Shown: piece after piece, positions 14,618-33,285 of the stretch
Numbering within the stretch: the stretch's first letter is position 1
How the letters are laid out: every line of letters starts with the position of its first letter
IMG/VR virus record: IMGVR_UViG_3300047325_000062
Coordinates: 1-38,720 of that record
Reading direction: 5' to 3' (one strand)
DNA length: 38,720 nucleotides
Source: a virus
Made by a program: the position numbers and the translations under genes
Notes under the pieces: generated by a model
What the model saw: only the letters and a program-made list of their open reading frames with translations
Databases searched by the model: none
What the model was told of the DNA's origin: nothing

Positions 14618-15297
14618 AAGACGGTCAAACCGGTGACATGATGGACATTCCGCCGCGGCGCGAGCCTTTGCGACTAGCGGCCTTCATGATGCGGCTTTTC
14701 CTCGTCTTGTACGTGGTCGGCATAATCACCGCGATTTTAGTCATGGTGATTTGCTGGGCTTTTCGGCAGCCCGCCAGAGCCGCCACCACGCCGAATTACT
14801 TCTACGAGTACACCGCCGTCGCGTTTACCGAAAACTCGGCCAACGCGGTGGCCACAGTCATGCCGCAGCGATCGGTGCCCTACACACTTCTATCCCTGTG
14901 CTCCGAGGACGGATACCAGTCTGCCTGGGCGAACGCTTTTCCGTTCCTGGCTGCAGGCATGACGGGACAGGTCGCAGGGGTCTGCACGCCGATTCAGACG
15001 ACATACGGCACCGCGAACGCAATCATGGTCATCAGTCTTGTCGGCCCGAACCGGCCGCTCTGGCAGATGGTGATCCCGTGGGCGACGCAAACCCTCTGCC
15101 GCGCGAACATCGACAACGTAACCGACCTGCAGGCATTCCTCGGCACATTTCTGATGGGATCGTTCAACAACTTGATCCCGATGCCGGTCACACTGGCCGG
15201 CAGCAGCATGTCCACTCAAGCGCAGTATCAGGCAACAGACGTGGCTGGCGGCACCGATAACGTGACGGTGGCCTGTCCTCCTGGCGGACCTACCTAG
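14614..15297 (+). CDS. Membrane-anchored hypothetical protein (227 aa)
   Basis: ATGA overlap with the portal stop. One strong N-terminal TM segment (LRLAAFMMRLFLVLYVVGIITAILVMVICWAF) is followed by a Cys-containing extracytoplasmic domain. Confidence 0.6.
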   Translation: MKDGQTGDMMDIPPRREPLRLAAFMMRLFLVLYVVGIITAILVMVICWAFRQPARAATTPNYFYEYTAVAFTENSANAVATVMPQRSVPYTLLSLCSEDGYQSAWANAFPFLAAGMTGQVAGVCTPIQTTYGTANAIMVISLVGPNRPLWQMVIPWATQTLCRANIDNVTDLQAFLGTFLMGSFNNLIPMPVTLAGSSMSTQAQYQATDVAGGTDNVTVACPPGGPT

Positions 15298-16625
15298 TCT
15301 GCTTTGTAGTCCATGCCGACCGCATATCCGTGCGCTTGAAGCTTCGGCAGCTGGATCTGCAAGCGCCGCCCGATATCGCCGCGCCACATCGGCGAGTTGG
15401 GCAAGCTCACGCTTTCGAGACACTGGTAAGCATGCCGCCGGGCTTCCTCGACCGTTTTCCCTAACCCGCTGGCGACCAGCACATAGGTCCCAGCAGTCAC
15501 CGGACACGGCACATCGTCCATCACCATCCCGTCAATCGACTGCGGAGCGGTGCCTTGTGCCATTTCGCAGAAATGCAGGTTGCTCATCCTGCCCGGCTTC
15601 ACCCCATAAACCGGGATCTCGGCCACGTCCGAAAGTGGAAACTTATTGTACGGATAATCGGGGATGCTCATCACCACCCCAGCCGCTACCGAATTCCACA
15701 CGCACTGTCCAATCGGCGCGCCAGCTGCAAGCGCCAGCATCCAGTCCGCGGGGCAGCCTTCATGCGTCGCCTGTTGAATGTTGAACGTGGGCCAGCCAGG
15801 CCGCATCGTCCATTCGAGGGGCCACGGATTGCCTTCGTCATCAATGATGCAATTGACATCAACGTATCCGACATGCCCCGTTTTCACGATGTCGGCTTCA
15901 AATGGTTTCAAGACCTTATCGGCAAGCTTTGATTTGCCGGCGTAGCGAAGGACGGTACCTTGTTCTCCCGTTTGTGGGCCCCTCTCACCGTCCATCAGCT
16001 TCTTAAACTCGAAATTCTCGCACCATCCACCATCGAACCCGTTAGGCCCGATCCAGCCGCCGACCGCCATTTCAACGCCGGAAACCTTTTCCTGCAGAAT
16101 GAACGGTGATTTGAGCTTCCCCAGCTTTTTCCATCGCTGAAGCATATAGACGAGGTCTTCGGGTGACTTAGCGACGTAGGACAGCGCCTTGTCTGCATCT
16201 CCCGACGGCTTTGAGACGAACGGCCGATCCTCTTTCTTCACGTAGGCGATGGCTTTGTCATAGTCGCTGAAGCAGCGGCTTGCGGGAACGGCGATGCCTT
16301 TTTTTCGGAATTGGGCCATTCCAACGTCGCGATCTAGCTCCCATTCCGAGCTTTCGGGGGTTGCACCGAACACGTAGGCGGAGCTGCCCGTGGTGCGGAT
16401 CACATCGCGGACTTCAGACAGGTAGGCGGTATTGTCGGTCAAGAAGATCAGATCGGCCCAGCGCACCCATTCGCGCCAGTTCGCAACCCTGCGAATAAGC
16501 CCGCGGCCGATCAGAGCAAGGCGAGGCTTGTCCGGAATGTAGAGCCGAACATCGTGGCCGGCGCGCTGCGCGCGCATGCACCAGTCCAGACCGTTACCGC
16601 CGGCATCAAGGACAAGTGCCCGCAT
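15294..16625 (-). CDS. PurD-like ATP-grasp enzyme (phosphoribosylamine-glycine ligase family fold, 443 aa)
   Basis: Colinear with E. coli PurD, recalled from memory. N-terminus MRALVLDAGGNG vs MKVLVIGNGGRE. FVSKPSGDADK vs IVIKADGLAAGK. GPQTGEQGT vs GPNTGGMGA. GNPWPLEWTMRPGWP vs GNPKVIEFNCRFGDPE. TAGTYVLVASGLGKTVEEARRHAY vs TNGGRVLCVTALGHTVAEAQKRAY. Confidence 0.8.
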   Translation of the reverse strand: MRALVLDAGGNGLDWCMRAQRAGHDVRLYIPDKPRLALIGRGLIRRVANWREWVRWADLIFLTDNTAYLSEVRDVIRTTGSSAYVFGATPESSEWELDRDVGMAQFRKKGIAVPASRCFSDYDKAIAYVKKEDRPFVSKPSGDADKALSYVAKSPEDLVYMLQRWKKLGKLKSPFILQEKVSGVEMAVGGWIGPNGFDGGWCENFEFKKLMDGERGPQTGEQGTVLRYAGKSKLADKVLKPFEADIVKTGHVGYVDVNCIIDDEGNPWPLEWTMRPGWPTFNIQQATHEGCPADWMLALAAGAPIGQCVWNSVAAGVVMSIPDYPYNKFPLSDVAEIPVYGVKPGRMSNLHFCEMAQGTAPQSIDGMVMDDVPCPVTAGTYVLVASGLGKTVEEARRHAYQCLESVSLPNSPMWRGDIGRRLQIQLPKLQAHGYAVGMDYKAD

Positions 16626-16987: not shown

Positions 16988-19357
16988 CTAGTTGAGCGCA
17001 CTTGCGTCTTGTGGCTGATCGGACTCCTGCTCTCCCTGCCTAGAGTTAGTCGCCAGCGTTCCCGCCCGCCGGAAGTTTTCAATATACGCCCTCGCCTTCG
17101 GGCTGGGGACCATGCTCAACAGCGTCCGGCCCCTCTGCGTATCGAGGTTAACCGTCGGGTCAAATAGCAGCCGCGCCATCGCCTCATTCACCTTTTTGTC
17201 GCCGATGATCCCGAGGTCACGCTTGGCTTTGAGGAAGTCGCCTACCGCGCCGAAGTAATTTCCGCCGGCCGCTTTCACCAAGCCCTTCGTAGCATTGGCA
17301 GCAGCGCCCATGCCAAGTTCCGCATCTTCCGCCTGACGCTCCGCTGTTTGCGAGCCGCCTAGTCGCTTACCGGCCTGAACGAAGACTGTACGTTCGTCGG
17401 TCACTGCTTGAATAAAATCGTCAAACTTTTTTTGACTGCTGAACAATGGACGCAAGCGCTCTTTTATCATGTCGTTGAAGTCGTTCTTGTCCAAACCTCG
17501 CGCCGACGGGGACTTTGGCCCCGCCTTGCTAATCTCGTCTCTCCACCAATCCGCAACCCCCAGCTTAAAATGCTCTCTCTCCGCAGGACTCAAGGGATTC
17601 CAAACCTCTTGGACCTCTTCTGGATGCATGCGAAATATGTTGCGACCTTGCAAGACTAGGCCCGCGGCCTTCGCCGGCCCTGCCCAAGCTGCGCGAGCCT
17701 CTTTGTAAACCGGATTGATTTCGTCGATCTGATCCAGAAAATCCCTCCTGATCGTGTTGAGATTTTGAGCAATCTGACCTCGATCTCCGCCGTTCATGAA
17801 GTCCAGCTTGCCGGTCAGAGGATCGCGGAAGTCCTCTATGATCTTATCCATGCCTTTCTTGATGCTGTCGAGCAACCTCATATTCGGAACCCGATCGACA
17901 ATCGGCTCACCGGACTTGTCGTAACCTGTGATTGCATAATCGCGCGGATTGAACGGCTTTCGGTCTGCCAGGGCTTCAATACGTTGCACTTCAAGCCCTC
18001 TGGCGATCGCAGGCTTCATAATGGGATCGGAGATAATTTGCTGAATGTACGGGGACCATACGCCACCGCGCTGCCCCGCCGCCGCGGCTGACTGAGCCTC
18101 GCGGAGCCTGGCGAGAACCGCTTGCTTGGCTTGAACTGCGGCCTGAGCTTTCTGCTGCGCCTCTTGCAAAGCCGTTCGAGCCTGCGCCTGTTCTTTCAGC
18201 GCCGCACTCGCCATGTAGACGTTATCGCCGGCCCGCGAGACTTTGGCAGCAGCCACCGTCATCGCATTCTGGGCTTTCTGAAGATCCTTTCGAGCCTCCG
18301 ATTCGGCTTTCGACGTGTCGCGGAACACACCCTCAAACTGTTTTTCCAGGGGCGCAACACTGCCAGGCGCCATTGCTTTTTCGTAAAGCGGCGCCGCCGC
18401 GGCTTTCTGCGCAGCGGTCAAGGCTTTAACCGATTGCCGCATAGATGGCCCGGAACTGATGTGCGCGGCACCTATCTGGGTGAGCCTGGCGCCGGCCTCC
18501 CGCATCTGGTTTTTCGCTTGCTCCTCAGCGATGGACTTTGGCGGCCCCGGCTTTCGCGAAAGGCTGCCAGCCAAGCCCTGCACGTTTTTGCCTCCGGCAT
18601 CCGCAAGCGCCATCGGCGTGCCGCGCGCCCTGGCCGCATTGACCGCGGCGATCGCCTCTGTCGCGGACGGACCACCGCCTTTCTCATCGTCCGAAAACCG
18701 TTGCAGGACCTTCGCAACGGCCTGTGCCTGGGCCCTGTCAGCAGCGCCGGCCGGGGTCAGAGTGTTCAGGATCGCCTGCCTGGCAGGGCCAAGGGCGTGA
18801 AACAACGCGCCGAGTCCCGTCGCGGTCGCAGCTCCCTCCGCTGCGTTCTTCGCGCGCTCGAAAATTGGGCTGTCGCTTGTCGTCGGCTGCATGGCGCCGG
18901 TCGCGGCCCCCATGCCCGCGCCCTTCAGCAACCCAGCACCGCGGACGGCATAGTTCAGCGGATTGATCGCCTCTCCGACTGTGTCATGCACGTCGAAAGC
19001 GCCTGGAGCTAATCCAGCTTGCTGTCGAAGACGCCCCTTTGCGCCTTGCAGAGCAGCAGCCGCATCGTCATACCCCTGCTGCCGGTCTTTACCGATGATC
19101 CCGAGCCGCCCAGCTACATCTGCGGTACCCTGCATGATCCCGACCGCCGGCGTCGCAAACCCCAAAAGCATGCGCTCGGTTTGGTTCCACGGACCGGGTC
19201 TGGCCGCTGTTTGTGCAGACGCCGGCGATTGCGGGGTCTGTTGTTGGGTCTGCTGTTGATTCACCATCGGTGCTGCCATCCAGGCAGGCCGCGCCCCCTG
19301 TCCAGGCTGCGCGCCCTGGCTGACAATCGGCGCGCTCATCCAGTCTGGATCGGCCAT
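16988..19357 (-). CDS. Large virion-associated (internal/ejection-type) protein, 789 aa
   Basis: TGATG coupling to the upstream gene. Q-rich N-terminus, long Ala-rich helical segments, no enzymatic motif recognised. Function is inferred from size and context in a podovirus-like genome. Confidence 0.5.
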   Translation of the reverse strand: MADPDWMSAPIVSQGAQPGQGARPAWMAAPMVNQQQTQQQTPQSPASAQTAARPGPWNQTERMLLGFATPAVGIMQGTADVAGRLGIIGKDRQQGYDDAAAALQGAKGRLRQQAGLAPGAFDVHDTVGEAINPLNYAVRGAGLLKGAGMGAATGAMQPTTSDSPIFERAKNAAEGAATATGLGALFHALGPARQAILNTLTPAGAADRAQAQAVAKVLQRFSDDEKGGGPSATEAIAAVNAARARGTPMALADAGGKNVQGLAGSLSRKPGPPKSIAEEQAKNQMREAGARLTQIGAAHISSGPSMRQSVKALTAAQKAAAAPLYEKAMAPGSVAPLEKQFEGVFRDTSKAESEARKDLQKAQNAMTVAAAKVSRAGDNVYMASAALKEQAQARTALQEAQQKAQAAVQAKQAVLARLREAQSAAAAGQRGGVWSPYIQQIISDPIMKPAIARGLEVQRIEALADRKPFNPRDYAITGYDKSGEPIVDRVPNMRLLDSIKKGMDKIIEDFRDPLTGKLDFMNGGDRGQIAQNLNTIRRDFLDQIDEINPVYKEARAAWAGPAKAAGLVLQGRNIFRMHPEEVQEVWNPLSPAEREHFKLGVADWWRDEISKAGPKSPSARGLDKNDFNDMIKERLRPLFSSQKKFDDFIQAVTDERTVFVQAGKRLGGSQTAERQAEDAELGMGAAANATKGLVKAAGGNYFGAVGDFLKAKRDLGIIGDKKVNEAMARLLFDPTVNLDTQRGRTLLSMVPSPKARAYIENFRRAGTLATNSRQGEQESDQPQDASALN

Positions 19358-23583: not shown

Positions 23584-23804
23584 GCGCCAAAAGCGCGCCA
23601 AAAGCGCGCCAAATCCAAGCCTTTGAAAACTCACGAAAGATGGCGAAAAACGCGCCAAAAACGACGAAAAACGGCGCCTAAGGATGATGGTTAGCGCCAA
23701 ATAGGGGGGTTTTACCCCCCCTATTTGGCGCAAACCATCCATCGGCGAAACGAAATTGCGCCAAAAGCGCGCCAAAAGATGGGTTGATTTCGGGCATTTG
23801 GCGC
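23584..23804. promoter_or_regulatory. Iteron cluster with a 16-bp-stem palindrome: putative replication origin or operator region
   Basis: GCGCCAAA(A/T) occurs in direct orientation at 23584, 23595, 23606 (11-bp phasing), 23652, 23694, 23758 and 23769. It occurs inverted at 23724-23731 and 23797-23804. Phased A-tracts lie at 23642-23675. A perfect hairpin pairs 23694-23709 with 23716-23731. Confidence 0.6.
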
Positions 23805-25924: not shown

Positions 25925-26426
25925 CCGATCGGTTTCCACTTTCGACGCGTCCACGAAGCCGGGCGCCGTGCTGAATCAGGAAGTCGATCGCTTCCTCCAC
26001 GCTCCGGCAAATCGGCAACACTGGAAAACCGGCCGCTGAAAGGCGGGGGTGGAGGTCCTTTTGCGACTTGGTCAGAACGCCATGACGATCCTTAAGCTCG
26101 ATCAGCCAGACCCGTCCATCGCCCCAAACCGCGATGTCAGGCCAGCCGGGCACCTGGCCCTGGGACCGGGCAAAAATGCTCGCCTGCCGGCCCTGGCGCT
26201 CCTGGACGTTCGCCTGGACGATGTAATCGGGAGGAACGATCGCGCGTAGCTGGGTGACGACAGCGCGCTGAATATCGCGCTCGTATGGATTGACCGCGCG
26301 CTCACCGCGCGACCTTTTCTTGCGGGCTTTAATCGGTGGATTTTCTGAAGAGCCGACAAGATCAGCGTAATCTGCCTCGCCGCGGTATAAGCGCGCTAGA
26401 TCGGCCTCAGAAATTCTAGCGGTCAT
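25917..26426 (-). CDS. VRR-NUC domain nuclease (169 aa)
   Basis: PD-(D/E)xK core GWPDIAVWGDGRVWLIELKDRHGVLTKSQKDLHPRLSAAGF. Preceded by ERDIQRAVVTQLR. Confidence 0.75.
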   Translation of the reverse strand: MTARISEADLARLYRGEADYADLVGSSENPPIKARKKRSRGERAVNPYERDIQRAVVTQLRAIVPPDYIVQANVQERQGRQASIFARSQGQVPGWPDIAVWGDGRVWLIELKDRHGVLTKSQKDLHPRLSAAGFPVLPICRSVEEAIDFLIQHGARLRGRVESGNRSGE

Positions 26427-26427
26427 G

Positions 26428-26967
26428 TCAGTTCTGCGTCAGAAACTGCGGTGAGGCCATCGCATCGCGACGAGGTCGCGCGTAAGCAATGTTGCAATGT
26501 GCGGTGCAGTAGGGCTTTCCGCGCTCAACTGGCTCGCAACAAAAAACAAAGCGGCCTGCCTTGACGGTCTTAACCGGCCAGGCGCACTCGCCATGCATCA
26601 CATAACGTTGCGGAGATGGTGGAGCGGTCCTTTCGATCGCTAGAACAGGCTTTTCCTCGACCGGTTTCGGCGAGGTGACAGGATCTACAGCCTCGCTCAA
26701 GCCGCCGGTGGCTTGCAGCTTGGCAAGCGTGTGTTTACCACGCACCTGAGACGGCCGCGGGGTGACTTTTGGTGCCGCATCTTCGGCCCTCCGCTTAATC
26801 GGAGATGGGCGGGACTTAAGACCCATTCGATGAGCAGCGCCGATGACACTGGATTTAGAGCATTTCATCTGCAGCGCAATGACCGAAGTCGTGTGGCCTT
26901 CAGTCCACAACCGGCGCAGCATGTCGCGTCTCTTCGGGTCGGCCCAGGCTGATAGACGCGTAGGCAT
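26428..26967 (-). CDS. gcrA: GcrA-family cell-cycle transcriptional regulator homologue (179 aa from ATG 26967)
   Basis: N-terminal HTH W..(8)..LRRLWTEGHTTSVIALQMKCSKSSVIGAAHRMGL, then a basic/Pro linker. C-terminal signature CAWPV...FVFCCEPVERGKPYCTAHCNIAY. The track ORF extension 26968-27096 overlaps the upstream gene. Confidence 0.8.
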   Translation of the reverse strand: MPTRLSAWADPKRRDMLRRLWTEGHTTSVIALQMKCSKSSVIGAAHRMGLKSRPSPIKRRAEDAAPKVTPRPSQVRGKHTLAKLQATGGLSEAVDPVTSPKPVEEKPVLAIERTAPPSPQRYVMHGECAWPVKTVKAGRFVFCCEPVERGKPYCTAHCNIAYARPRRDAMASPQFLTQN

Positions 26968-27443
26968 TACCTGTTCCCGCCCGAAAAATCCGCCGCCGGG
27001 AGCGATTCCCCGGCGGCGCAGGTGACTAGGGAGGAAACGGCCCGTGACGTGGGCAAAGCGATCGCCGCAGACGCGGTGATTCCGGGATGGGCGCAATCAG
27101 CCAACAGGAAATAGCCGACGCGAGGCTCGCATGCGATCTGCAGATGCGGCGCCACATCATTCAGCAGAAGCCGCAAACGCCACACGACGGTAAAAAGAAG
27201 ATTTCTGTAAGATTTTGTGCCGGGCTGAGAAAAAGAACCAACCGCTCGGATGAGGTCGCTGTAAGCCTTCACCTGGCCGACGTCGGCCAATGCTGCAAGC
27301 AGACGGGCCTGCTGTGCATGCATGCGATAGCGACCGCGCGGTGTGGTGAGGATGTGCGTCTGCAGGTCGATCGTGACACCGCCAGGCAGGTCAACGACGA
27401 AACCATGCATATACGGACAGGAGCTGCAGCATTCCAAACTCAT
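26967..27443 (-). CDS. OmpR/PhoB-type winged-helix DNA-binding protein with no receiver domain (158 aa)
   Basis: ...IDLQTHILTTPRGRYRMHAQQARLLAALADVGQVKAYSDLIRAV...YRNLLFTVVWRLRLLL...IACEPRVGYFL matches the trans_reg_C pattern. A Cys-rich N-terminus (CCSSCPYMH) precedes it. Confidence 0.6.
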   Translation of the reverse strand: MSLECCSSCPYMHGFVVDLPGGVTIDLQTHILTTPRGRYRMHAQQARLLAALADVGQVKAYSDLIRAVGSFSQPGTKSYRNLLFTVVWRLRLLLNDVAPHLQIACEPRVGYFLLADCAHPGITASAAIALPTSRAVSSLVTCAAGESLPAADFSGGNR

Positions 27444-27694
27444 TCCGAGGACTCCGTTACCTCGTCTGTCTTTGGCCGCGGAAATATGTCAGGTCGAAGC
27501 TGATGCGGATCGATACCGCTCAACCGGCTGATTTCCGCCACGTGGAGGGCCGGAGGACGGCGCCATGCTGATACCGCTTGCTTAGTGACCCCGAGGGCTC
27601 GCGCTAGACGCGTACCGCCACCCACGAGGCTTATCGCCCGCTGCAACGACTCGGTCTGACGGGATGCGTCATTATTGCGCTCGGCGTCTTCCAT
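27440..27694 (-). CDS. Cro/YdaS-like HTH regulator (84 aa from ATG 27694)
   Basis: AISLVGGGTRLARALGVTKQAVSAWRRPPALHVAEISRLSGIDPHQLRPDIF fits the YdaS/Cro-type HTH. It is the first gene of the leftward operon. ATGA overlap with the next gene. Confidence 0.7.
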   Translation of the reverse strand: MEDAERNNDASRQTESLQRAISLVGGGTRLARALGVTKQAVSAWRRPPALHVAEISRLSGIDPHQLRPDIFPRPKTDEVTESSE

Positions 27695-27724
27695 GCGCCC
27701 GAGCGAACCACCAAAAAAAATCGC

Positions 27725-27773
27725 AGTCAAGGCTAATTTGACCGTTGCGCTATGGGTCAACCTATGCTTGACT
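27725..27773. promoter_or_regulatory. Divergent early control region with nested inverted repeats and face-to-face promoter-like hexamers
   Basis: AGTCAAG (27725-31) pairs with CTTGACT (27767-73). TTGACC (27738-43) pairs with GGTCAA (27755-60). The + strand reads TTGACC-N18-CTATGC and the - strand reads TTGACC-N17-ATTAGC. Confidence 0.45.
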
Positions 27774-27835
27774 TGTTTCGACGCCAAGCCGCTCCTGCAA
27801 TCAAGCAGGCGGCTTGGCGGGCTAGGAGAGGTTAG

Positions 27836-28198
27836 ATGAAAACGATAGAAATTAAAAATCGCTGGAATGGCACGACGTTGTTCTCCTGCGAAATAACGCC
27901 GGACGTCGAGGACATGCCATACGGGCAACAGCTTGGTTTTGCCGTGAGAAAAGCACTGGCCTCAAACATCCGTCTGTCGGGCGCCGATCTGCGGGGCGCC
28001 GATTTGTCGGGCGCCGATTTGTCGCGCCGCGATCTGTCGCGCTGCGATCTGTCGCGCTGCGATCTGTCGGGCGCCGATCTGCGGAACTCCATGCTGTTGG
28101 GCGCCATTCTGCGAGGCACCATTCTGTTGGGCGCCATTCTGTCGGGCGCCTATTTGTCGGGCTCCATTCTGTTGGGCGCCGACGAGACGGTTGCGTAA
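27836..28198 (+). CDS. Pentapeptide-repeat protein, short paralogue (120 aa)
   Basis: A(D/N)LxG/R-type pentads: SGADLRGADLSGADLSRRDLSRCDLSRCDLSGADLRNSMLLGAILRGTILLGAIL. It shares its N-terminal 45 aa with the next gene. GGAGAGG RBS. Confidence 0.8.
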   Translation: MKTIEIKNRWNGTTLFSCEITPDVEDMPYGQQLGFAVRKALASNIRLSGADLRGADLSGADLSRRDLSRCDLSRCDLSGADLRNSMLLGAILRGTILLGAILSGAYLSGSILLGADETVA

Positions 28199-28266
28199 TT
28201 GCTTGAACGCCAGCCAGGTTAATCGTGGCTGGAATTCTGGCGATTGTGCGAACTAGGAGAAGCTAG

Positions 28267-29058
28267 GTGAAAACGATGGAAATTAAAAATCGCTGGAATG
28301 GCACGACGTTGTTCACATGCGAAATAACGCTGGACGTCGAGAATATGTTATACGGGCAACAGCTTGGTTTTGCCGTGAGAAAAGCACTGGCCTCAAACAT
28401 CCGTCTGTCGGACGCTGATCTGTCGGGCGCCGATCTGCAAGGCGCCTATTTGTCGCGCTGCGATCTGTCGGACGCCGATTTGTCGCGCTGTGATCTGTCG
28501 CGCTGCGATCTGTCGGGCGCCGATCTGCGAGGCGCCGATCTGCGAGGCGCCGATCTGCGGGGCGCCGATCTGTCGCGCTGCAAGCTATCGGGCGCCTATT
28601 TGTCGCGCTGCGATCTGTCGGACGCCGATCTGTCGCGCTGCAAGCTATCGGGCGCCGATCTGTCGCGCGCCGATCTGTCGCGCGCCAATTTGTCAACAGT
28701 CAAGCAGGACTTCCTTGCCGAAGTCCTACGCCTTCCTAACGAGCTTGAGGCGCTTAAAGACGCGCTGCTCGCGGGCCGAGTAGACGGTTCGATATATAGC
28801 GGAAGTTGTGCATGCCTGGCCGGTACCTTGGCCAAAGCGCACGGCATCAGCAATTATAACGGCCGTGACATTAACCTTGGCAACAATATTGTTTTTCATG
28901 CAAACGCCGAGAGTCCGCGGGAGATGTTCTTCACCGCCATACAGCCGGGTGACACACCAGAGAAAAATGGCGCGGCGCGGATCGCGCTGCAATGGACCGA
29001 AGAGGCTATTGCTATCCGGGACATGATCCGCGTTACCGCCCCCAGGGAGGCAGTATGA
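28267..29058 (+). CDS. Pentapeptide-repeat protein, long paralogue with a Cys-containing C-terminal domain (263 aa; GTG 28267 or ATG 28276)
   Basis: About 20 consecutive pentads (ADLSGADLQGAYLSRCDLSDADLSRCDLSRCDLSGADLRGADLRGADLRGADLSRCKLSG...). The C-terminal domain contains GRVDGSIYSGSCACLAGTLAKAHG. Confidence 0.85.
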   Translation: MKTMEIKNRWNGTTLFTCEITLDVENMLYGQQLGFAVRKALASNIRLSDADLSGADLQGAYLSRCDLSDADLSRCDLSRCDLSGADLRGADLRGADLRGADLSRCKLSGAYLSRCDLSDADLSRCKLSGADLSRADLSRANLSTVKQDFLAEVLRLPNELEALKDALLAGRVDGSIYSGSCACLAGTLAKAHGISNYNGRDINLGNNIVFHANAESPREMFFTAIQPGDTPEKNGAARIALQWTEEAIAIRDMIRVTAPREAV

Positions 29059-29396
29059 TGGGCACCCTCTACTACGAGCTTGAACGCGCCATCGGCTTTG
29101 ACGAGGCCGATTACCTGGAAGTCGCGGTCCATTTCATTAGCCGATGTACAGTGAAAGCCTACGCGGGCGACTGCACAGACCCGCCCTGGCCGGCCGAATA
29201 CGAGCACACGCTCGATGGCATGGAGATCATCGAGCCGGGCTGCCACGCGCCGCTGACCGATGCCGAGCGGGCACAAATCGCTGCTTGGTTTGAAACGCGC
29301 ACGCGCGAGTGCGACGAGCTGGCTGCGGCCGACGACGACTTTGGTGAGCGCGCCGACTACGAATACGACCGGCGTCGTGACGAACTGACTTTCTAA
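29055..29396 (+). CDS. Hypothetical acidic protein (113 aa)
   Basis: ATGA overlap with the previous stop. GGGAGG RBS. Confidence 0.6.
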   Translation: MMGTLYYELERAIGFDEADYLEVAVHFISRCTVKAYAGDCTDPPWPAEYEHTLDGMEIIEPGCHAPLTDAERAQIAAWFETRTRECDELAAADDDFGERADYEYDRRRDELTF

Positions 29397-29446
29397 CCCC
29401 CGCGCCGGCGCATCCTGACCCCCAGCCGCCAACAGGAGAAACCCCC

Positions 29447-29665
29447 ATGTCCTACATCTTCAACAAGGAACTCAACGCGATGGACACGGTCCACAAGGCG
29501 CTGGATGGCCTGACGCCGACCGAGCGCGCCCGCGTCATCGCCTGGGTGCAGGAGGTTTTCGAGGAGGCCGAACTGGCGGCGCTGGATGCGAAAACCGCTG
29601 CGGTTTTCGATGCGCCTGTCGGAATACCGGCAGTCGCAGCGGCGCCTGCGGCGGAGGCGGCGTGA
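29447..29665 (+). CDS. Hypothetical protein (72 aa)
   Basis: CAGGAGAAA RBS. Complete ORF. Confidence 0.6.
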   Translation: MSYIFNKELNAMDTVHKALDGLTPTERARVIAWVQEVFEEAELAALDAKTAAVFDAPVGIPAVAAAPAAEAA

Positions 29666-29841
29666 TGAATGACTCATACACCCGCCTGGCCGCCCACTGC
29701 CGCGCCGTCGCTGGCACCGAGCGCCCAATCAGCCCAGCGGTCTACGCAGGCGCGCTGCTGCACGCGGCGATGACCCTGGAAGCCTGGGCGTCAGACCTGG
29801 ATTGCATTGCAAACTTCGAAATCAGCGGAGAAAGCAAATGA
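29665..29841 (+). CDS. Hypothetical protein (58 aa, below the track cutoff)
   Basis: Hand translation gives MNDSYTRLAAHCRAVAGTERPISPAVYAGALLHAAMTLEAWASDLDCIANFEISGESK. TGATG overlap upstream and ATGA overlap downstream. Confidence 0.45.
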   Translation: MNDSYTRLAAHCRAVAGTERPISPAVYAGALLHAAMTLEAWASDLDCIANFEISGESK

Positions 29842-29945
29842 TCAGATACGCATTCGTCAAATGGACGCTGCTCACATGTTCATGTGTGCTGGCCGCAACA
29901 TTAGCCTACGCCTTCGTCGTGCTTTATGCGTGGAGTGTGCAGTGA
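29838..29945 (+). CDS. Possible 35-aa hydrophobic peptide
   Basis: Hand translation gives MIRYAFVKWTLLTCSCVLAATLAYAFVVLYAWSVQ. Start and stop overlap both neighbours. Confidence 0.35.
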   Translation: MIRYAFVKWTLLTCSCVLAATLAYAFVVLYAWSVQ

Positions 29946-30355
29946 TGGGCGTCATTTCGGAAAAGCTGATCAAAGCGTGCGAAGCGCAATATTCGCTCGT
30001 GCAAAATTCCCATCTAGTAGTATCGGCGCCTGCGGCAGTGGCGTTGCTCGGCATGGACGTTTGCGCTTTAGCCAAAGAGGTCGAGGCGGTGGAATGCCGC
30101 CAAATGAGCATCACGGCTCAGTTGCTTTCAAGCCGGCAGAAGGCTCTCGACACCGACGCCGCGCTGCGTCGGATTGCTGCTCAGCTTTCTGTGGCGCTTC
30201 AGCACGATGTGCCGGACTCTGTTGTGCGGTCCGCTGCTGCACATACAACCGCTGAAATACAGGCTTTGTTGGACCGAGACTCCCAGCCTCATAAGTTCAG
30301 CCGGCCGCGCGGCGACTTCCTGCGTGTGTTTGAGGGCGGGGCAGTCAAAAGATGA
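29945..30355 (+). CDS. Hypothetical protein (136 aa)
   Basis: In-frame ATG 29945 within track ORF 29807..30355. This start was chosen because it removes overlap with the two small coupled ORFs. Confidence 0.5.
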   Translation: MGVISEKLIKACEAQYSLVQNSHLVVSAPAAVALLGMDVCALAKEVEAVECRQMSITAQLLSSRQKALDTDAALRRIAAQLSVALQHDVPDSVVRSAAAHTTAEIQALLDRDSQPHKFSRPRGDFLRVFEGGAVKR

Positions 30356-30561
30356 CACAGCTTCGAGTTTTGCAGCGCAACATGACAGAGGCGTATGCAA
30401 CCGCCAGAATTCTGGCCATCTTAGCCCGCCGGATTCGCGCTCAAGCCGCGTCCGGAGACACTGTGGGACTTCAAGCCGATCTGAACGAAATGGCCCGGGA
30501 GGCCGCGGCCCTGTCTGAGATGATAAACTCGTGCGCCAAGATACGGGTCACAAGCTTATGA
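30352..30561 (+). CDS. Hypothetical protein (69 aa)
   Basis: ATGA overlap with the previous gene. Helical composition. Confidence 0.55.
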   Translation: MTQLRVLQRNMTEAYATARILAILARRIRAQAASGDTVGLQADLNEMAREAAALSEMINSCAKIRVTSL

Positions 30562-30731
30562 GCAAGGACGAAGCGCGAGTGCTGCTCGGCTATCTCTCTG
30601 AAATCATTTCCGATCTGCGCGATCTCGCCCAGGACGCTCCATTACATGTTGCAACGAACAGGACGCAGCATATTGCTGCGTTGCAAGAGGCAAGCCGCGC
30701 GCTGGCTGAAACCTTTGGAGTAAGTTCATGA
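30558..30731 (+). CDS. Hypothetical protein (57 aa)
   Basis: ATGA overlaps at both ends. In-frame ATG 30558 inside track ORF 30531..30731. Confidence 0.5.
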   Translation: MSKDEARVLLGYLSEIISDLRDLAQDAPLHVATNRTQHIAALQEASRALAETFGVSS

Positions 30732-31627
30732 ACGCAATTTCGAAAAGTAAGCTCAGGGCCGTTGCACCGAAGGCTGCCGCACCGGCCAAGCCTAAGGTTC
30801 TGATTTTTGGCGCTGCGGGTGTCGGAAAGACATGGACTGCGCTGGACTTTGCGGCCTGCTATTACATCGACACGGAAGGCGGCGCAAACCTCAAACGCTA
30901 CATCGAAAAGCTGGAGCGCAGCGGCGGTGTTTATCTCGGGCCTGACCAGGGCGCTTTGTCTTTCGACACGGTGCTGGAGCAGGTGCAGCTACTTGCCACG
31001 CAAAAGCACCCCTACCGTACCCTAGTCATAGATTCGGTTTCCAAGTTGTTTGGCAGCGCCGTCGCCCAGGAGGCGGAGCGTTTGGCGGACGCGGGAAAAA
31101 AGAATGAATTCGGCGCGGACAAAAAACCAGCGGTGGGCGCTATGCGTCGGCTTGTTTCCTGGCTCACGCGCCTGGATATGACGGTTCTGCTGATCGCGCA
31201 CCAGAAGGAGGAATGGGGCCTGAACGCGAAAGGCGAACGGGAAGCGATCGGCCAGACGTTTGATGCATGGGATCGTCTGGAATACGAGCTGCATCTGTGC
31301 CTGCAGGTGATTCAGCAGGGCAACAATCGCTTCGCCAAGGTTCGTAAGTCCCGGCTGGAAAATTTCACCAAGGGTGAATCTATGCCATGGTCTTACGAGG
31401 AATTTGCGACGCGCTACGGCAAGGAAACCATCGAAGAAGATGTGAAGCCGATTGAGTTAGCGAGCGATGAACAGCTTGCCGAAGTCCGTAAGCTCCTGGA
31501 AGTCGTCAAAATACCAGACGATCAGGAAGCCAAGTGGTTCACCGCTGCCGGCGTCACGTCATGGCCCGAGATGGACGCTGAAAAGGTGGACAAGATTATC
31601 AGCTGGCTGAAAGGGAAACTGCCATGA
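30728..31627 (+). CDS. Sak4-like AAA_24 (RecA-fold) ATPase, a recombination/annealing accessory protein (299 aa)
   Basis: Walker A VLIFGAAGVGKTWTA. Walker B YRTLVIDSVSKL. LLIAHQKEEW. Typical pairing with a downstream DUF669-type SSB. Confidence 0.8.
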   Translation: MNAISKSKLRAVAPKAAAPAKPKVLIFGAAGVGKTWTALDFAACYYIDTEGGANLKRYIEKLERSGGVYLGPDQGALSFDTVLEQVQLLATQKHPYRTLVIDSVSKLFGSAVAQEAERLADAGKKNEFGADKKPAVGAMRRLVSWLTRLDMTVLLIAHQKEEWGLNAKGEREAIGQTFDAWDRLEYELHLCLQVIQQGNNRFAKVRKSRLENFTKGESMPWSYEEFATRYGKETIEEDVKPIELASDEQLAEVRKLLEVVKIPDDQEAKWFTAAGVTSWPEMDAEKVDKIISWLKGKLP

Positions 31628-32109
31628 GGTTTACACCCAAAACGGAAGCCGAAATTGAGGCGGAAGCCGCTGCACGCGGCCCCTTCAAGCCAGGCATCTA
31701 CGATTTCGACGTGATCAACGCATTGGATGAAGTTTCCAAAAGTGGCAATGACATGATCACGCTTGAAATCCGGGTGTTTGACGGCAACGGGGAAACCAAA
31801 AAGATCACGGATTGGCTGGTCGATAAGATCGCCTACAAGGTACGTCATGCCGCCTACTCCGTCGGTCTTGGCCGCGAGTATGAGGCTGGCAAGCTGGAGG
31901 CCAGCGATTTCCTAAATCGCAGTGGCAAGGTAAAGCTGAAGATCAAGCAGGAAAATCCGTATCCGCCAAGGAATGTGGTTTATGATTATGTAGTCGAAGA
32001 CAAACCGGCGAACGTCTCATCTTCCCGGCCCCCAGCCCGCAAATCCGTCCCCGCAGGCGGCGGCGATTCGTTTGACGATGATATTCCGTTCGCTGCGGAG
32101 TGGCGGTAA
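31624..32109 (+). CDS. DUF669-type single-stranded DNA-binding protein carrying a DDDIPF motif (161 aa)
   Basis: N-terminus ...FKPGIYDFDVINALDEVSKSGNDMITLEIRVFD... (DUF669-like). An unstructured G/P/S linker follows, then DSFDDDIPF followed by AAEWR-stop. Confidence 0.7.
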   Translation: MRFTPKTEAEIEAEAAARGPFKPGIYDFDVINALDEVSKSGNDMITLEIRVFDGNGETKKITDWLVDKIAYKVRHAAYSVGLGREYEAGKLEASDFLNRSGKVKLKIKQENPYPPRNVVYDYVVEDKPANVSSSRPPARKSVPAGGGDSFDDDIPFAAEWR

Positions 32110-32212
32110 CCCGGACGCATGACTCTCATAGCCGACGATCACGCCGCACCGCCGCTGTCTGGCGTTTGGCGATCCGCATTTTCGCGTGTGCCAGGCTTGA
32201 GGAGAAACCCAA

Positions 32213-33285
32213 TGAAAGTGAAACTGCGAGACGGCAGCACCATAAATTCGCTGCCCGAAACCGCCTCGCAGGCGGCGTTGGTCGTCGCAATCGACTCAGG
32301 CGCCGACCTGGAGGGCTACGCCCACGCCCTCCCGGCGCTTACCTCCATCGGGGGTTCCGCCTACCTGGAGGGCTACGCCCATGCCCTCCCGGCGCTTGCC
32401 TCCATCGGGGGTTCCGCCTACCTGCGGGGCTACGCCCATGCCCTCCCGGCGCTTACCTCCATCGGGGGTTCCGCCTACCTGGAGGGCTACGCCCATGCCC
32501 TCCCGGCGCTTACCTCCATCGGGGGGCCCGCCGACCTGGAGGGCTACGCCCACGCCCTCCCGGCGCTTACCTCCATCGGGGGTTCCGCCAACCTGGAGCG
32601 CTACGCCCACGCCCTCCCGGCGCTTACCTCCATCGGGGGTTCCGCCTACCTGGAGGGCTACGCCCACGCCCTCCCGGCGCTTACCTCCATCGGGCGTTCC
32701 GCCTACCTGCTGGGCTACGCCCATGCCCTTCCGGCGCTTACCTCCATCGGGGGTTCCGCCTACCTGCTGGGCTACGCCCATGCCCTTCCGGCGCTTACCT
32801 CCATCGGGGATTACGCCTACCTGGAGGGCTGCGCCCACGCCCTCCCGGCGCTTACCTCCATCGGGCGTTCCGCCTACCTGCGGGGCTACGCCCATGCCCT
32901 TCCGGCGCTTACCTCCATCGGGGATTACGCCTACCTGGAGGGCTACGCCCATGCCCTCCCGGCGCTTACCTCCATCGGGGGTTTCGCCGACCTGCGGGGC
33001 TACGCCCATGCCCTCCCGGCGCTTACCTCCATCGGGGGGCCCGCCGACCTGCGGGGCTACGCCCACGCCGATTGGCCTTGGTTGATAAATGGCGGGGCCG
33101 AGAGCCGTGGATATTATTTCACTGGCATGCTGGTGGATGGCGAGTGGCGTATCCGCGCGGGCTGTCGCGATTTCACAATCGAGCAGTCCCTGACTCACTG
33201 GGGATCTGGTGGCCGAAGCAACAGGCCAGATTGCCTGGCACTCGTGAATAAGATCAAGGCCATTGCCGAGGAACGTGGCAAGTGA
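32213..33285 (+). CDS. Solenoid/LRR-like protein built from 13 tandem 19-aa repeats plus a unique C-terminal domain (357 aa from ATG 32213)
   Basis: GAGGAGAAACCCA-ATG RBS. The unit is GYAHALPALTSIGxxAxLx, repeated 13 times. The C-terminus is DWPWLINGGAESRGYYFTGMLVDGEWRIRAGCRDFTIEQSLTHWG... The track ORF start at 32119 lacks an RBS and contains the 31-bp repeat. Confidence 0.75.
32313..33053 (+). repeat. Tandem repeat, 57 bp x 13, in-frame and near-identical
   Basis: GGCTACGCCCA(C/T)GCCCT(C/T)CCGGCGCTTACCTCCATCGGG... recurs at 32313, 32370 and every 57 bp up to 33054. Confidence 0.95.

What the first reader, a model, noticed from the sequence alone, without database searches (positions are those of the whole stretch)
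27836..29058. Two paralogous pentapeptide-repeat (DNA-mimic-type) proteins are the first genes of the early-right operon
The segments 27822-27985 and 28253-28416 are about 165-bp near-identical copies. Each covers the RBS, the start codon (ATG vs GTG) and the first 45 codons. The first copy (120 aa) ends after a degenerating pentad tract (..LLGAILRGTILLGAILSGAYLSGSILLGAD). The second (263 aa) has about 20 clean A(D/N)LxX pentads plus a Cys-containing C-terminal domain. Pentapeptide-repeat proteins such as Qnr and MfpA fold into right-handed quadrilateral beta-helices that mimic B-DNA and target gyrase. The first-expressed gene of a phage is a classical location for DNA-mimic anti-restriction proteins; T7 Ocr is the analogy. 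Together with the 19-aa-repeat gene downstream, this operon carries three solenoid/repeat proteins. That suggests a host-takeover or anti-defence arsenal.
Basis: partly seen in the sequence, partly recalled or inferred. Interest (0 to 1): 0.65.

Follow-up and report, generated by a model that had tools for sequence, protein, structure and literature searches.

The report
Duplicated phage pentapeptide-repeat early genes
The two genes are real pentapeptide-repeat paralogues at the start of a regulated phage early operon, but they belong to a large uncharacterised phage family whose constant part is an unknown C-terminal domain, and nothing tested here supports a Qnr/Ocr-like DNA-mimic role.

Summary
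Segments 27822-27985 and 28253-28416 are 92% identical. ORF A (27836-28198, 120 aa) and ORF B (28267-29058, 263 aa) are both pentapeptide-repeat proteins (PRPs). They are the first genes after a 141-bp divergent control region that holds two operator-like palindromes.

B is a complete member of a large, unnamed phage/prophage family. It has a 45-aa N-terminal cap, a β-helix of variable length and a conserved 115-aa Cys-containing C-terminal "head". The head has no Pfam, PDB or BFVD match and occurs in 867 protein clusters.

A is a recent partial copy without the head, partly derived from a different allele. The closest relative carries a single copy.

The DNA-mimic reading is not supported:
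- Scores lie far below the Qnr and MfpA cut-offs.
- Net charge is only -1 (A) and -5 (B).
- The rod has about 5 coils and is capped at both ends.
- Alleles with near-identical end domains carry 8 to 143 aa of repeats, while the head is conserved.

The gene usually lies on the same strand as the phage recombination module, like the λ/P22 early-left accessory genes. The downstream 19-aa-repeat gene has the same cap-solenoid-head design. The function is unknown. My best inference is an accessory factor that binds a host protein through its head.

The parts
27440..27694 (-). Divergent HTH regulator gene (YdaS/Cro-like, 84 aa from ATG 27694). The mechanical ORF listing extends it to 27928, overlapping A.
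   Evidence: Pfam YdaS_toxin 3e-13 and P22_Cro 2.7e-06; phrog_35 'transcriptional repressor' 2e-15. Homologues in related loci are 68-71 aa.
27726..27742 (.). Operator-like palindrome GTCAA-N7-TTGAC, copy 1, in the divergent intergenic region.
   Evidence: Exact match. Three matches in the whole window against 0.78 expected; two of them lie 30 bp apart in this 141-bp intergenic region.
27756..27772 (.). Operator-like palindrome GTCAA-N7-TTGAC, copy 2.
27782..27819 (+). GC-rich stem-loop (11 + 4 bp) directly upstream of A's RBS, with no U-tract.
   Evidence: RNA fold -33.3 kcal/mol, z -3.5. Inverted repeat I18. Function unknown.
27836..28198 (+). Paralogue A (120 aa). N-terminal cap: aa 1-45. 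Eight canonical pentads: aa 46-85. Six variant pentads with I/M/Y at the outward i-1 position: aa 86-115. Then DETVA and stop. No C-terminal head.
   Evidence: No self hit in the 5.8-billion-protein collection, so it is apparently not a called gene there.
28196..28246 (+). Stem-loop between A and B. This region and the RBS are homologous to the region upstream of the single-copy gene in relative L004.
   Evidence: RNA fold -30.5 kcal/mol, z -4.0. Alignment with L004. No informative covariation.
28267..28401 (+). Paralogue B, N-terminal cap (aa 1-45): β-hairpin plus helix.
   Evidence: AF2 model pLDDT 95-98; strands 2-8 and 14-20, helix 29-42. Family motif FxIKNRWxGxVxFxCEL...LGFAVKKA.
28402..28701 (+). 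Paralogue B, pentapeptide-repeat β-helix (aa 46-145, about 20 pentads, about 5 coils).
   Evidence: PF00805 7e-46. PDB sequence matches are to PRPs only. DSSP shows a regular rung every 5 residues.
28702..29058 (+). Paralogue B, conserved C-terminal 'head' (aa 146-263) with the motif GRxDGSxYxGxCxCLxGTxA...SPRE..F..I..GDTP...W, plus the stop codon.
   Evidence: Invariant residues E159 G170 Y177 C181 C183 L184 E219 F222 I225 W243 in 96 sequences. No Pfam, NCBIfam or PDB-sequence hit. Foldseek best E 2.5 against PDB and 3.1 against BFVD. 867 clusters at E<=1e-3. pN/pS 0.24 against L004.
29055..29396 (+). Downstream ORF (113 aa) whose start overlaps B's stop (ATGA). Strongly acidic.
   Evidence: Net charge -18, pI 4.2. 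No family or phage match.
32212..33285 (+). Third cap-solenoid-head protein of the operon: 13.5 copies of a 19-aa repeat plus a C-terminal 'AGCR' head that other phages carry on cap-PRP proteins.
   Evidence: TRF 57 bp x 13.5 copies, 92% matches. Translation. Head against P0185 E 2e-14, P0162 6e-08, P0132 1e-06. Homologue P0383 has only about 1.5 repeats.

Best explanation
Anatomy (shown). B is an intact member of a widespread, unnamed phage/prophage accessory-protein family with three modules: a 45-aa N-terminal cap, a pentapeptide-repeat β-helix 'stalk' of freely variable length, and a conserved 115-aa Cys-containing C-terminal 'head' with no known fold relative. A is a recent partial duplicate (RBS, cap and about 14 pentads) with no head. 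It arose by recombination involving a second allele. The pair are the first genes of an early operon controlled from a divergent HTH/operator region, and the operon runs on into the phage recombination module.

Mechanism (inferred). The protein is a non-essential, fast-evolving factor for host interference or counter-defence, and it acts by protein-protein binding. The head is the specificity or effector part. The PRP is a rigid spacer whose length changes quickly by repeat slippage or unequal recombination. It is not a Qnr/MfpA-type topoisomerase-protecting DNA mimic. A is either a decaying remnant or a headless competitor/modulator of B.
For: PRP identity and structure:
- Both proteins match the pentapeptide family.
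- The AF2 model of B has pLDDT 92 and pTM 0.82. It shows a cap, 19 rungs and an α/β head.

Size and spread of the family:
- Full-length homologues number in the hundreds.
- 222 IMG/VR viral contigs encode a relative.
- 54 loci were found in genomes from many phyla.
- Among 50,697 GenBank phage records, only Bordetella phage IFTN6 carries the head.

The head is the constant part:
- 867 clusters at 50% identity match it, and it is always C-terminal.
- Its N-terminal partners range from cap + PRP of any length (down to 1-2 pentads), to other solenoid repeats, to nothing.
- It is under purifying selection (pN/pS 0.24 against L004, compared with 0.54-0.76 for the cap).

The stalk is hypervariable:
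- 24 of 26 pairs with near-identical cap and head differ in PRP length, by multiples of 5 aa, over a range of 8-143 aa.
- Published cases agree. Phages L and ST64T differ by one 15-bp repeat. Caulobacter phages RW and GB2A differ by 375 bp.

The cap + PRP unit also carries other heads.

Genomic context:
- Two operator-like palindromes lie in the 141-bp divergent region.
- Locus L146 is syntenic with the window: HTH, GcrA, RusA and helicase on one side; orf66, PRP, DUF3799 and AAA_24 on the other.
- Loci L087 and L145 are similar.
- Wherever a recombination gene was detected within 6 kb, it was on the same strand as the PRP gene (22 of 22).
- The same holds for the loci with Pfam annotation.
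- The position parallels the P22-like early-left accessory region: ral, orf-232 (a PRP), 17, kil, erf, abc.

Origin of A:
- The closest relative, L004 (79% identity), has one copy.
- Its upstream hairpin and RBS are homologous to those of B, not A.
- A's cap resembles alleles P0002 and P0006.
- A's tail matches the L004 allele best.
- Independent duplications exist elsewhere (L045, L032, L070).

A third cap-solenoid-head gene lies in the same operon.
Against: - No functional data exist for any member. The paper library held no phage PRP with an experimentally tested function.
- The role as an accessory binding protein is inferred only from architecture, variability and position.
- Part of the PRP length variation in metagenome contigs could be repeat collapse during short-read assembly.
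- The tandem A-B arrangement rests on one contig and could not be checked against reads. A look-up of the called product gave nothing.
- Expression timing is inferred from gene order, not measured.
- Co-occurrence with recombination genes, as detected by my small tblastn panel, was only 34% of viral loci of at least 10 kb. That is not above a rough chance estimate; only the strand agreement is striking.
- An acidic pI (5.2) and an Asp on nearly every pentad keep some DNA-like character possible.
Confidence: 0.5

Rival explanations
1. A and B are DNA mimics of the Qnr/MfpA or Ocr functional type. They are made first after infection to block a host DNA-binding enzyme or defence system (gyrase, type I R-M, BREX, RecBCD).
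For: - The PRP β-helix has roughly the dimensions of B-DNA; this is established for MfpA and Qnr (PMC7980463, PMC8145042, listed).
- B has pI 5.2 and an Asp at the outward i-1 position of 15 of its 19 pentads counted in register.
- The genes are promoter-proximal in an early operon.
- In P22-like phages a PRP gene lies between ral (antirestriction) and gene 17, upstream of abc (anti-RecBCD).
- The gene shares a strand with recombination genes, which need protection of DNA ends.
- One family representative is fused to a UvrD-helicase N-terminal part (P0248).
Against: - Scores are far below the Qnr and MfpA family cut-offs.
- Arg at positions i+1 and i+2 balances the Asp residues. Net charge is -1 (A) and -5 (B), or -3 over B's 100-aa PRP, and each face nets between 0 and -3.
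- Family net charge ranges from -24 to +8.
- The rod has about 5 coils, is not interrupted by Qnr-type loops, and is capped at both ends by globular domains.
- PRP length varies from 8 to 143 aa between alleles that are otherwise identical, and the PRP can be replaced by other solenoids, while the head is conserved.
- The adjacent ORF at 29055-29396 (net charge -18) is a better mimic by charge.
Confidence: 0.17
2. The genes are prophage-encoded defence or superinfection-exclusion genes (morons) that protect the lysogen, rather than lytic-cycle factors.
For: - The family is common in bacterial genomes as apparent prophages.
- In Bordetella phage IFTN6 and a Burkholderia prophage the gene is on the repressor side of the switch.
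- PRPs occur in at least one defence effector, Hailong HalA.
- Hypervariability is also typical of defence loci.
Against: - No PADLOC match.
- The HalA match is E 0.094 and covers the repeats only.
- There is no membrane or ion-channel domain.
- In the window and in L087, L145 and L146 the gene heads the operon that carries lytic recombination functions, divergent from the HTH regulator and downstream of operator-like sites.
- No integrase was found among the window ORFs I scanned.
Confidence: 0.12
3. This rival concerns A only. A is a non-functional by-product: a truncated recombination remnant on its way to loss, or a misassembly of two co-occurring alleles across the 15-bp repeats.
For: - The arrangement is found on one contig only, and A has no self hit among called proteins.
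- The closest relatives have a single copy.
- A lacks the conserved head.
- A's last 6 pentads put Ile, Met or Tyr at an outward position.
- A's cap and tail resemble other alleles (P0002, P0006, L004) more than they resemble B, as expected for a chimera.
Against: - A has an intact RBS, an ATG start and an open frame of 120 codons.
- A's 3' junction (GACGAGACGGTTGCGTAA) is unique sequence, not repeat.
- Headless cap-PRP proteins of similar size exist elsewhere (P0133 of 121 aa, P0211 of 119 aa).
- Tandem paralogues occur independently in other loci, for example L045.
- At 92% identity too little time has passed for decay to show either way.
Confidence: 0.4

Closest known systems
Qnr / MfpA / AlbG / McbG topoisomerase-protecting pentapeptide-repeat proteins
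   Same: Same Pfam repeat family (PF00805) and the same predicted right-handed quadrilateral β-helix. PDB sequence hits include Qnr at 3e-18, QnrB1 at 1.7e-15 and MfpA at 9e-11, through the repeats only. The pI is mildly acidic.
   Different: - Far below family cut-offs: 56.9 against 240 for Qnr, 36.9 against 360 for MfpA.
- About 5 coils, with no loop interruptions.
- An N-terminal β-hairpin/helix cap, and a 115-aa globular head in place of a C-terminal dimerisation helix.
- Phage-borne.
- Repeat number is hypervariable.
Bordetella phage vB_BaM-IFTN6 gp49 (UOK17382.1, annotated 'pentapeptide repeat family protein')
   Same: The only one of 50,697 GenBank phage records with the same three-module architecture including the head. 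49% identity over 94% of B. It lies in an early operon upstream of exoVIII and RecT.
   Different: Single copy. It lies four genes downstream of the repressor, on the repressor's strand. It is uncharacterised.
Salmonella phages ST64T / L Orf-232 (P22-like early-left operon PRP)
   Same: A PRP with non-repeat N- and C-terminal parts in the early accessory region (24, ral, orf-232, 17, c3, kil, erf, abc). The repeat number differs by one 15-bp unit between near-identical phages.
   Different: The end domains show no resemblance to those of A and B on inspection, and its C-terminal part carries the 'GCQxH..W' motif seen in Acinetobacter prophage PRPs. That head type gave no significant profile match to B's. 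Its function is also unknown.
T7 Ocr, ArdA and λ Gam (phage or MGE DNA-mimic inhibitors)
   Same: Small proteins that are promoter-proximal or expressed early. The analogy is positional only.
   Different: No sequence or fold relation. From my own knowledge, those mimics are extremely acidic, whereas A and B net -1 and -5. The neighbouring ORF at 29055-29396 (net -18) fits that profile better.
Hailong HalA (defence effector with pentapeptide repeats and an ion-channel domain)
   Same: Contains pentapeptide repeats and is associated with mobile elements.
   Different: The match is E 0.094 and covers the repeats only. There is no channel or membrane domain and no PADLOC hit.

Membership tests
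Pentapeptide-repeat proteins (Pfam PF00805) | At least 8 contiguous A(D/N)LxX pentads scoring above the Pfam gathering threshold (20.2 bits) | tested here: met
   A scores 72.8 bits (E 1.5e-20) and B scores 153.8 bits (E 7e-46). B has 19-20 pentads. A has 8 canonical and 6 variant pentads.
Pentapeptide-repeat proteins (Pfam PF00805) | Right-handed quadrilateral β-helix fold | tested here: met
   AF2 model of B: pLDDT 92, one strand every 5 residues from 50 to 141. Foldseek matches phage PRPs.
Qnr family (NCBIfam NF033086) | Whole-protein score of at least 240 bits | tested here: not met
   B 56.9 bits, A 25.0 bits.
Qnr family | Loops A and B interrupting the β-helix, and a C-terminal dimerisation helix (PMC3089455, PMC10886550) | tested here: not met
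   The model shows an uninterrupted repeat ladder followed by a 115-aa globular α/β domain.
MfpA (NCBIfam NF000349) | Whole-protein score of at least 360 bits | tested here: not met
   B 36.9 bits, A 25.2 bits.
DNA-mimic proteins (functional class: Ocr, ArdA, Gam, MfpA) | A surface with DNA-like negative charge | tested here: inconclusive
   From sequence alone: net -1 (A) and -5 (B), per-face net between 0 and -3, with Asp balanced by Arg.
DNA-mimic proteins (functional class) | Binds and inhibits a DNA-binding enzyme | not testable with these tools
   Needs biochemistry.
Cap-PRP-head phage family (unnamed; this report) | N-terminal cap motif FxIKNRWxGxxxFxCE...LGFAVKKA | tested here: met
   Present in both A and B.
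Cap-PRP-head phage family (unnamed; this report) | C-terminal head with the invariant residues E, G, Y, CxCL, E, F, I and W | tested here: met
   B has all of them. A lacks the domain entirely, so A is a truncated derivative and not a full member.
Phage early (immediate) genes | First genes downstream of a regulated early promoter, transcribed first | tested here: inconclusive
   The position is met: divergent HTH gene, two operator-like palindromes and no ORF in between. No sigma-70-like promoter was found by the simple scan. Timing cannot be tested here.
Known anti-phage defence proteins (PADLOC-DB) | Match to a defence-system model | tested here: not met
   No hit for A or B at E<=0.01.

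The most novel reading that the evidence does not exclude
Phages carry a combinatorial class of early 'cap - β-solenoid stalk - head' effectors. Small orphan-fold head domains, some with conserved Cys motifs, are mounted on solenoid stalks (pentapeptide, 19-aa or hexad repeats). Stalk length is tuned quickly by repeat gain and loss. This operon holds three such genes (A, B and the 19-aa-repeat gene). The heads would target host defence or DNA-metabolism proteins, and stalk length or headless copies would modulate reach or act as decoys.
Probability: 0.3. Interest if true: 0.7.

Novelty: new variant of a known kind. Interest (0 to 1): 0.45.

Why it matters
Pentapeptide-repeat genes are annotated in hundreds of phages, but the paper library searched here held none with a tested function. 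This locus is a compact example of a large family (867 clusters at 50% identity for the head alone). The family's conserved head has no Pfam model and no structural relative in PDB or BFVD.

The analysis moves attention from the repeat tract, which invites the DNA-mimic guess, to the head. It also gives concrete constructs to test: head alone, a cap-head allele with few repeats, and Cys mutants.

If the family turns out to be a counter-defence or host-takeover factor, it would add a widespread new class. It would also explain why PRP genes in phage early regions change their repeat number so readily. If not, the result is still a useful correction: the label 'pentapeptide repeat = Qnr-like DNA mimic' should not be carried over to these phage proteins.

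Tried and rejected
- A near-identity DNA search of 26000-32000 against 50,697 phage records found nothing.
- Pfam, NCBIfam, PHROGs and PADLOC give no named function for the cap, the head or the neighbouring small ORFs.
- PDB sequence search and Foldseek searches (PDB, BFVD) with the head alone found nothing below E 2.5.
- I tested whether all the alternative C-terminal heads (type 1 'GxCxCLAGT', type 2 'IGCQxH', type 3 'HCRAGW', type 4 'AGCR') form one superfamily. hhalign gave E values of 0.079 to 0.58, which are not significant, so I rejected the idea.
- I asked whether the PRP is specifically linked to recombination genes. A small tblastn panel found such genes within 6 kb in only 16 of 47 large viral loci, about the chance level. 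Only the strand agreement (22 of 22) is notable.
- The hairpin upstream of B is conserved in L004 but shows no compensatory changes, so RNA structure is not demonstrated. Rfam found nothing in the window.
- The simple promoter scan found no sigma-70-like site in the control region.
- The small ORFs that precede the PRP gene in L146 and L087 are unrelated to A.
- The last protein search, with the 19-aa-repeat gene's head, returned only two hits.
- The look-up of the called product P0001, to find the source sample, returned nothing.
- The first genome-collection scan with alignment A2 failed for lack of a conserved stretch. It was rerun successfully with A1.
- pN/pS for the A and B caps is 0.65, based on about 8 changes, which is too few to support any claim of selection.
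- Model coordinates are not exposed to the scripting tool, so no electrostatics could be computed.
Full report
OBSERVATION

The described duplication is real. Segments 27822-27985 and 28253-28416 share 151 of 164 bases (92%) at an offset of 431 bp. The repeat finder extends the pair to 27808-28107 and 28239-28538 at 84% identity. The copy covers the RBS, the start codon (ATG at 27836, GTG at 28267) and about 50 codons. There are five amino-acid differences in codons 2-48.

ORF A is 27836-28198 (120 aa) and ORF B is 28267-29058 (263 aa). Both match Pfam PF00805, at E 1.5e-20 and 7e-46. Tandem Repeats Finder reports 15-bp arrays of 14 and 19.4 copies. B has 19-20 regular pentads. A has eight canonical pentads followed by six variant ones (MLLGA ILRGT ILLGA ILSGA YLSGS ILLGA) and then DETVA-stop.

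SETTING

The window is a whole phage-like contig.
- Capsid, tail-fibre, terminase and adaptor genes lie at 0-15 kb.
- A leftward operon starts at 27694. It carries a YdaS/Cro-like HTH gene, then a GcrA-like gene, an HNH/resolvase-like gene and a primase/helicase-like gene.
- A rightward operon carries A, B, several small ORFs, a Sak4-like AAA_24 ATPase (30728), an SSB-like protein (31624) and a 19-aa-repeat protein.

The HTH gene most likely starts at ATG 27694. This gives 84 aa, close to its 68-71-aa homologues in related loci. The control region is then 141 bp long. It holds two exact copies of the palindrome GTCAA-N7-TTGAC, 30 bp apart. The whole window has three copies against 0.78 expected.

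So the statement that these are the first genes of an operator-controlled early operon is supported by position. Timing cannot be tested here, and the simple promoter scan found no sigma-70-like site.

Strong stem-loops precede both RBSs (-33.3 and -30.5 kcal/mol, z -3.5 and -4.0). Their role is unexplained.

WHAT B IS

A search of 5.8 billion proteins returned hundreds of full-length homologues of 190-330 aa. Their alignments show three modules.
1. A conserved 45-aa N-terminal cap.
2. A pentapeptide tract whose length differs widely between members.
3. A conserved 115-aa C-terminal domain. Its invariant residues in 96 sequences are E159, G170, Y177, C181, C183, L184, E219, F222, I225 and W243.

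AlphaFold2 models B with pLDDT 92 and pTM 0.82. The model shows a β-hairpin-plus-helix cap, 19 β-helix rungs, and an α/β head that follows the helix. The conserved DGSxYxGxCxC stretch is the least confident part of the head.

The head has no relative in any library searched:
- no Pfam or NCBIfam hit;
- no PDB sequence hit;
- Foldseek best E 2.5 against PDB and 3.1 against BFVD.

An exhaustive phmmer search of 1.84 billion cluster representatives found 867 clusters at E<=1e-3 and 302 at E<=1e-10. The domain is at or near the C-terminus in almost all of the 150 listed hits.

The family occurs in 222 IMG/VR viral contigs. It also occurs in genomes from many phyla, including Pseudomonadota, Acidobacteriota, Bacteroidota, Planctomycetota, Actinomycetota and Cyanobacteria. 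Among 50,697 GenBank phage records, only Bordetella phage vB_BaM-IFTN6 carries the head.

THE HEAD IS CONSTANT AND THE REPEATS ARE NOT

Upstream of the head one finds several arrangements:
- cap + PRP of any length, down to one or two pentads (P0257, P0299, P0309);
- other solenoid repeats (P0296, P0364, P0334);
- essentially nothing (P0252, P0264, P0294);
- in one representative, a UvrD-helicase N-terminal part plus PRP (P0248).

I found 26 pairs of family members whose caps are at least 85% identical and whose heads are at least 90% identical. In 24 of these pairs the PRP length differs, always by multiples of 5 aa, over a range of 8-143 aa. Each pentad turns the helix by about 90 degrees, so the cap and the head keep no fixed mutual orientation.

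Some of this variation could be assembly collapse of repeats. Variation is real in isolate genomes, however (Burkholderia P0064, P0097 and P0109). Published cases agree. Phages L and ST64T differ by one 15-bp repeat, and Caulobacter phages RW and GB2A differ by a 375-bp deletion in their PRP gene.

The head is under purifying selection (pN/pS 0.24 between B and L004, against 0.54-0.76 for the cap).

Conversely, the cap + PRP unit carries other C-terminal domains in other phages and prophages. Profile comparison found no significant similarity between these head types.

WHAT A IS

The closest relative (P0003 on L004, 79% identity) has a single gene preceded by unrelated small genes. Its upstream hairpin and RBS align with the region upstream of B, not A. 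B with its leader is therefore the ancestral cassette. A's similarity to it begins at the RBS (27821).

A is not a plain in-place copy of B:
- Its cap carries residues typical of alleles P0002 and P0006 (S17, VEDMPY).
- Its tail DNA matches the L004 allele best (93% over 43 nt).

A therefore looks like a recombinational fragment of a second allele. It lacks the head. Its last 1.5 coils place Ile, Met or Tyr at the normally Asp/Asn outward position.

A has an intact RBS, an ATG start and an open frame. However, it has no self hit among called proteins in the large collection, and the arrangement rests on one contig. Independent duplications exist elsewhere. L045 has two complete tandem paralogues with identical heads and different arrays. 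L032 has a second copy with a different head. I cannot decide whether A is functional.

CONTEXT ACROSS RELATIVES

The loci with Pfam-annotated neighbours show the following.
- L146 is syntenic with the window. An HTH gene, GcrA, RusA, a helicase and a methylase are on one strand. A 66-aa ORF, the PRP, small ORFs, DUF3799 and AAA_24 are on the other.
- L087 has a divergent YdaS gene, then a 70-aa ORF, the PRP, Gp157 and RecT.
- L145 has the PRP first after a divergent gene, leading on to AAA_24.
- In L147, L148, L006, a Burkholderia prophage and phage IFTN6, the PRP lies in the same operon as Sak4, ERF, RecT or YqaJ-type genes, but further from the promoter.

With a small tblastn panel, every locus that had a detectable recombination gene within 6 kb had it on the PRP's strand (16/16 viral, 6/6 genomic). 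Co-occurrence itself (34% of large viral loci) is not above a rough chance level.

The arrangement parallels the accessory part of the λ/P22 early-left operon. In Salmonella phage ST64T a PRP gene (orf-232, whose end domains show no resemblance to those of A and B) lies between ral and gene 17, upstream of kil, erf and abc.

THE DNA-MIMIC READING

Points in its favour:
- the PRP fold itself;
- a mildly acidic pI;
- an Asp on most pentads;
- the early, recombination-linked position.

Points against:
- Both proteins score far below the curated cut-offs. For Qnr they score 56.9 and 25.0 against 240. For MfpA they score 36.9 and 25.2 against 360.
- Arg balances Asp. Net charge is -1 for A and -5 for B, and each face nets between 0 and -3.
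- Family net charge runs from -24 to +8.
- B's rod has about five coils, has no Qnr-type loops, and is capped at both ends.
- The repeat tract is the dispensable and variable part of the family.

The library held no paper that tests a phage PRP. Mentions are annotations or HHpred remarks. The mimic idea is therefore weakened but not refuted.

The ORF that overlaps B's stop codon (29055-29396, 113 aa) has net charge -18 and pI 4.2. By charge alone it is a better mimic candidate than either PRP.

THE THIRD REPEAT PROTEIN

The 57-bp x 13.5 array at 32301-33069 (92% matches) encodes 19-aa repeats. These lie between a cap-like N-terminus, which probably starts at ATG 32212, and a C-terminal domain containing GEWRIRAGCRDFTIEQSLTHW.

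That domain is homologous to the C-terminal domains of cap-PRP proteins P0185 (E 2e-14), P0162 (6e-08) and P0132 (1e-06). A homologue, P0383, has the same cap and head but only about 1.5 repeats.

The operon thus holds three genes of one design: cap, solenoid of variable length, and small head.

CONCLUSION

Shown:
- the paralogy and the PRP identity;
- the three-module architecture;
- the orphan, conserved head;
- the hypervariable stalk;
- the recent and partial nature of A;
- the promoter-proximal position beside an operator-like control region.

Inferred: B is an accessory early factor that binds a host or competitor target through its head, with the PRP acting as a rigid spacer of variable length. 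A is either a remnant or a headless modulator.

It is not a member of the Qnr or MfpA families. Nothing tested here supports an Ocr-like role.

I rate it a new variant of a known kind and give it moderate interest (0.45).

Noticed in passing
window 32212-33285 (+); repeat array 32301-33069: The 19-aa-repeat gene (57 bp x 13.5 copies, 92% matches) has a cap-like N-terminus. Its C-terminal 'AGCR' domain is homologous to the C-terminal domains of cap-PRP proteins from other sources (P0185, E 2e-14). Homologue P0383 has the same ends but only about 1.5 repeats. The mechanical ORF start at 32119 is probably too early.
   Followed up: partly
window 29055-29396 (+): A 113-aa ORF whose start overlaps B's stop codon (ATGA). 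It is very acidic (28 D/E against 10 K/R, net -18, pI 4.2). It has no match in Pfam, PHROGs, NCBIfam or GenBank phages. By charge it is a better DNA-mimic candidate than either PRP.
   Followed up: partly
window 27726-27742 and 27756-27772 (also 17420-17436): Two exact GTCAA-N7-TTGAC palindromes lie 30 bp apart in the 141-bp divergent region between the HTH gene and A. They are probably operators. A third copy lies at 17420.
   Followed up: partly
window 27782-27819 and 28196-28246: GC-rich stem-loops without U-tracts lie just upstream of both PRP ribosome-binding sites (-33.3 and -30.5 kcal/mol, z about -3.5 and -4). The second is conserved upstream of the single-copy gene in L004, but without compensatory changes. 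Their role is unknown (processing site, stabiliser or attenuator).
   Followed up: partly
window 23686-23739: A 24-nt inverted repeat, 96% complementary, with a 6-nt spacer (GATGGTTAGCGCCAAATAGGGGGG / CCCCCCTATTTGGCGCAAACCATC). It lies next to the primase/helicase-like gene, and a further TTTGGCGCAA / TTGCGCCAAA pair is nearby. It may be an origin or a terminator.
   Followed up: no
window 15294-16625 (-): A 443-aa ORF with weak ATP-grasp (GARS_A, GARS_C) matches. It sits between the structural genes and a block of leftward genes with no family match, which is unusual content for a phage.
   Followed up: no
window 26428-27096 (-) and 26967-27443 (-): A GcrA-like cell-cycle-regulator homologue (Pfam 1.5e-17) lies in the leftward early operon. 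GcrA-like genes recur next to the PRP family in L146, L088 and L147. The listed ORF overlaps the upstream 158-aa ORF, so its true start is probably later.
   Followed up: no
L045 4900-6828: Two complete tandem paralogues of the cap-PRP-head gene, with identical heads but different repeat arrays. This is an independent duplication in another phage-like element.
   Followed up: partly
L032 5977-6807 and 8069-8839: Two cap-PRP genes lie 1.3 kb apart in one phage contig. One has the type-1 head. The other has a different head ('SRWHSCQTTHCRAGW'), which also occurs in about 25 other proteins retrieved here.
   Followed up: partly
protein P0248 (566 aa; no locus fetched): One cluster representative joins a UvrD/Rep-helicase N-terminal part to PRP repeats and the type-1 head. 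It may be a true fusion or a gene-call artefact.
   Followed up: no
L147 13069-13314 (-): A gene of the Acb2/Tad1-hairpin family (anti-CBASS/anti-Thoeris sponge family) lies about 5 kb from the PRP gene in a related phage contig.
   Followed up: no
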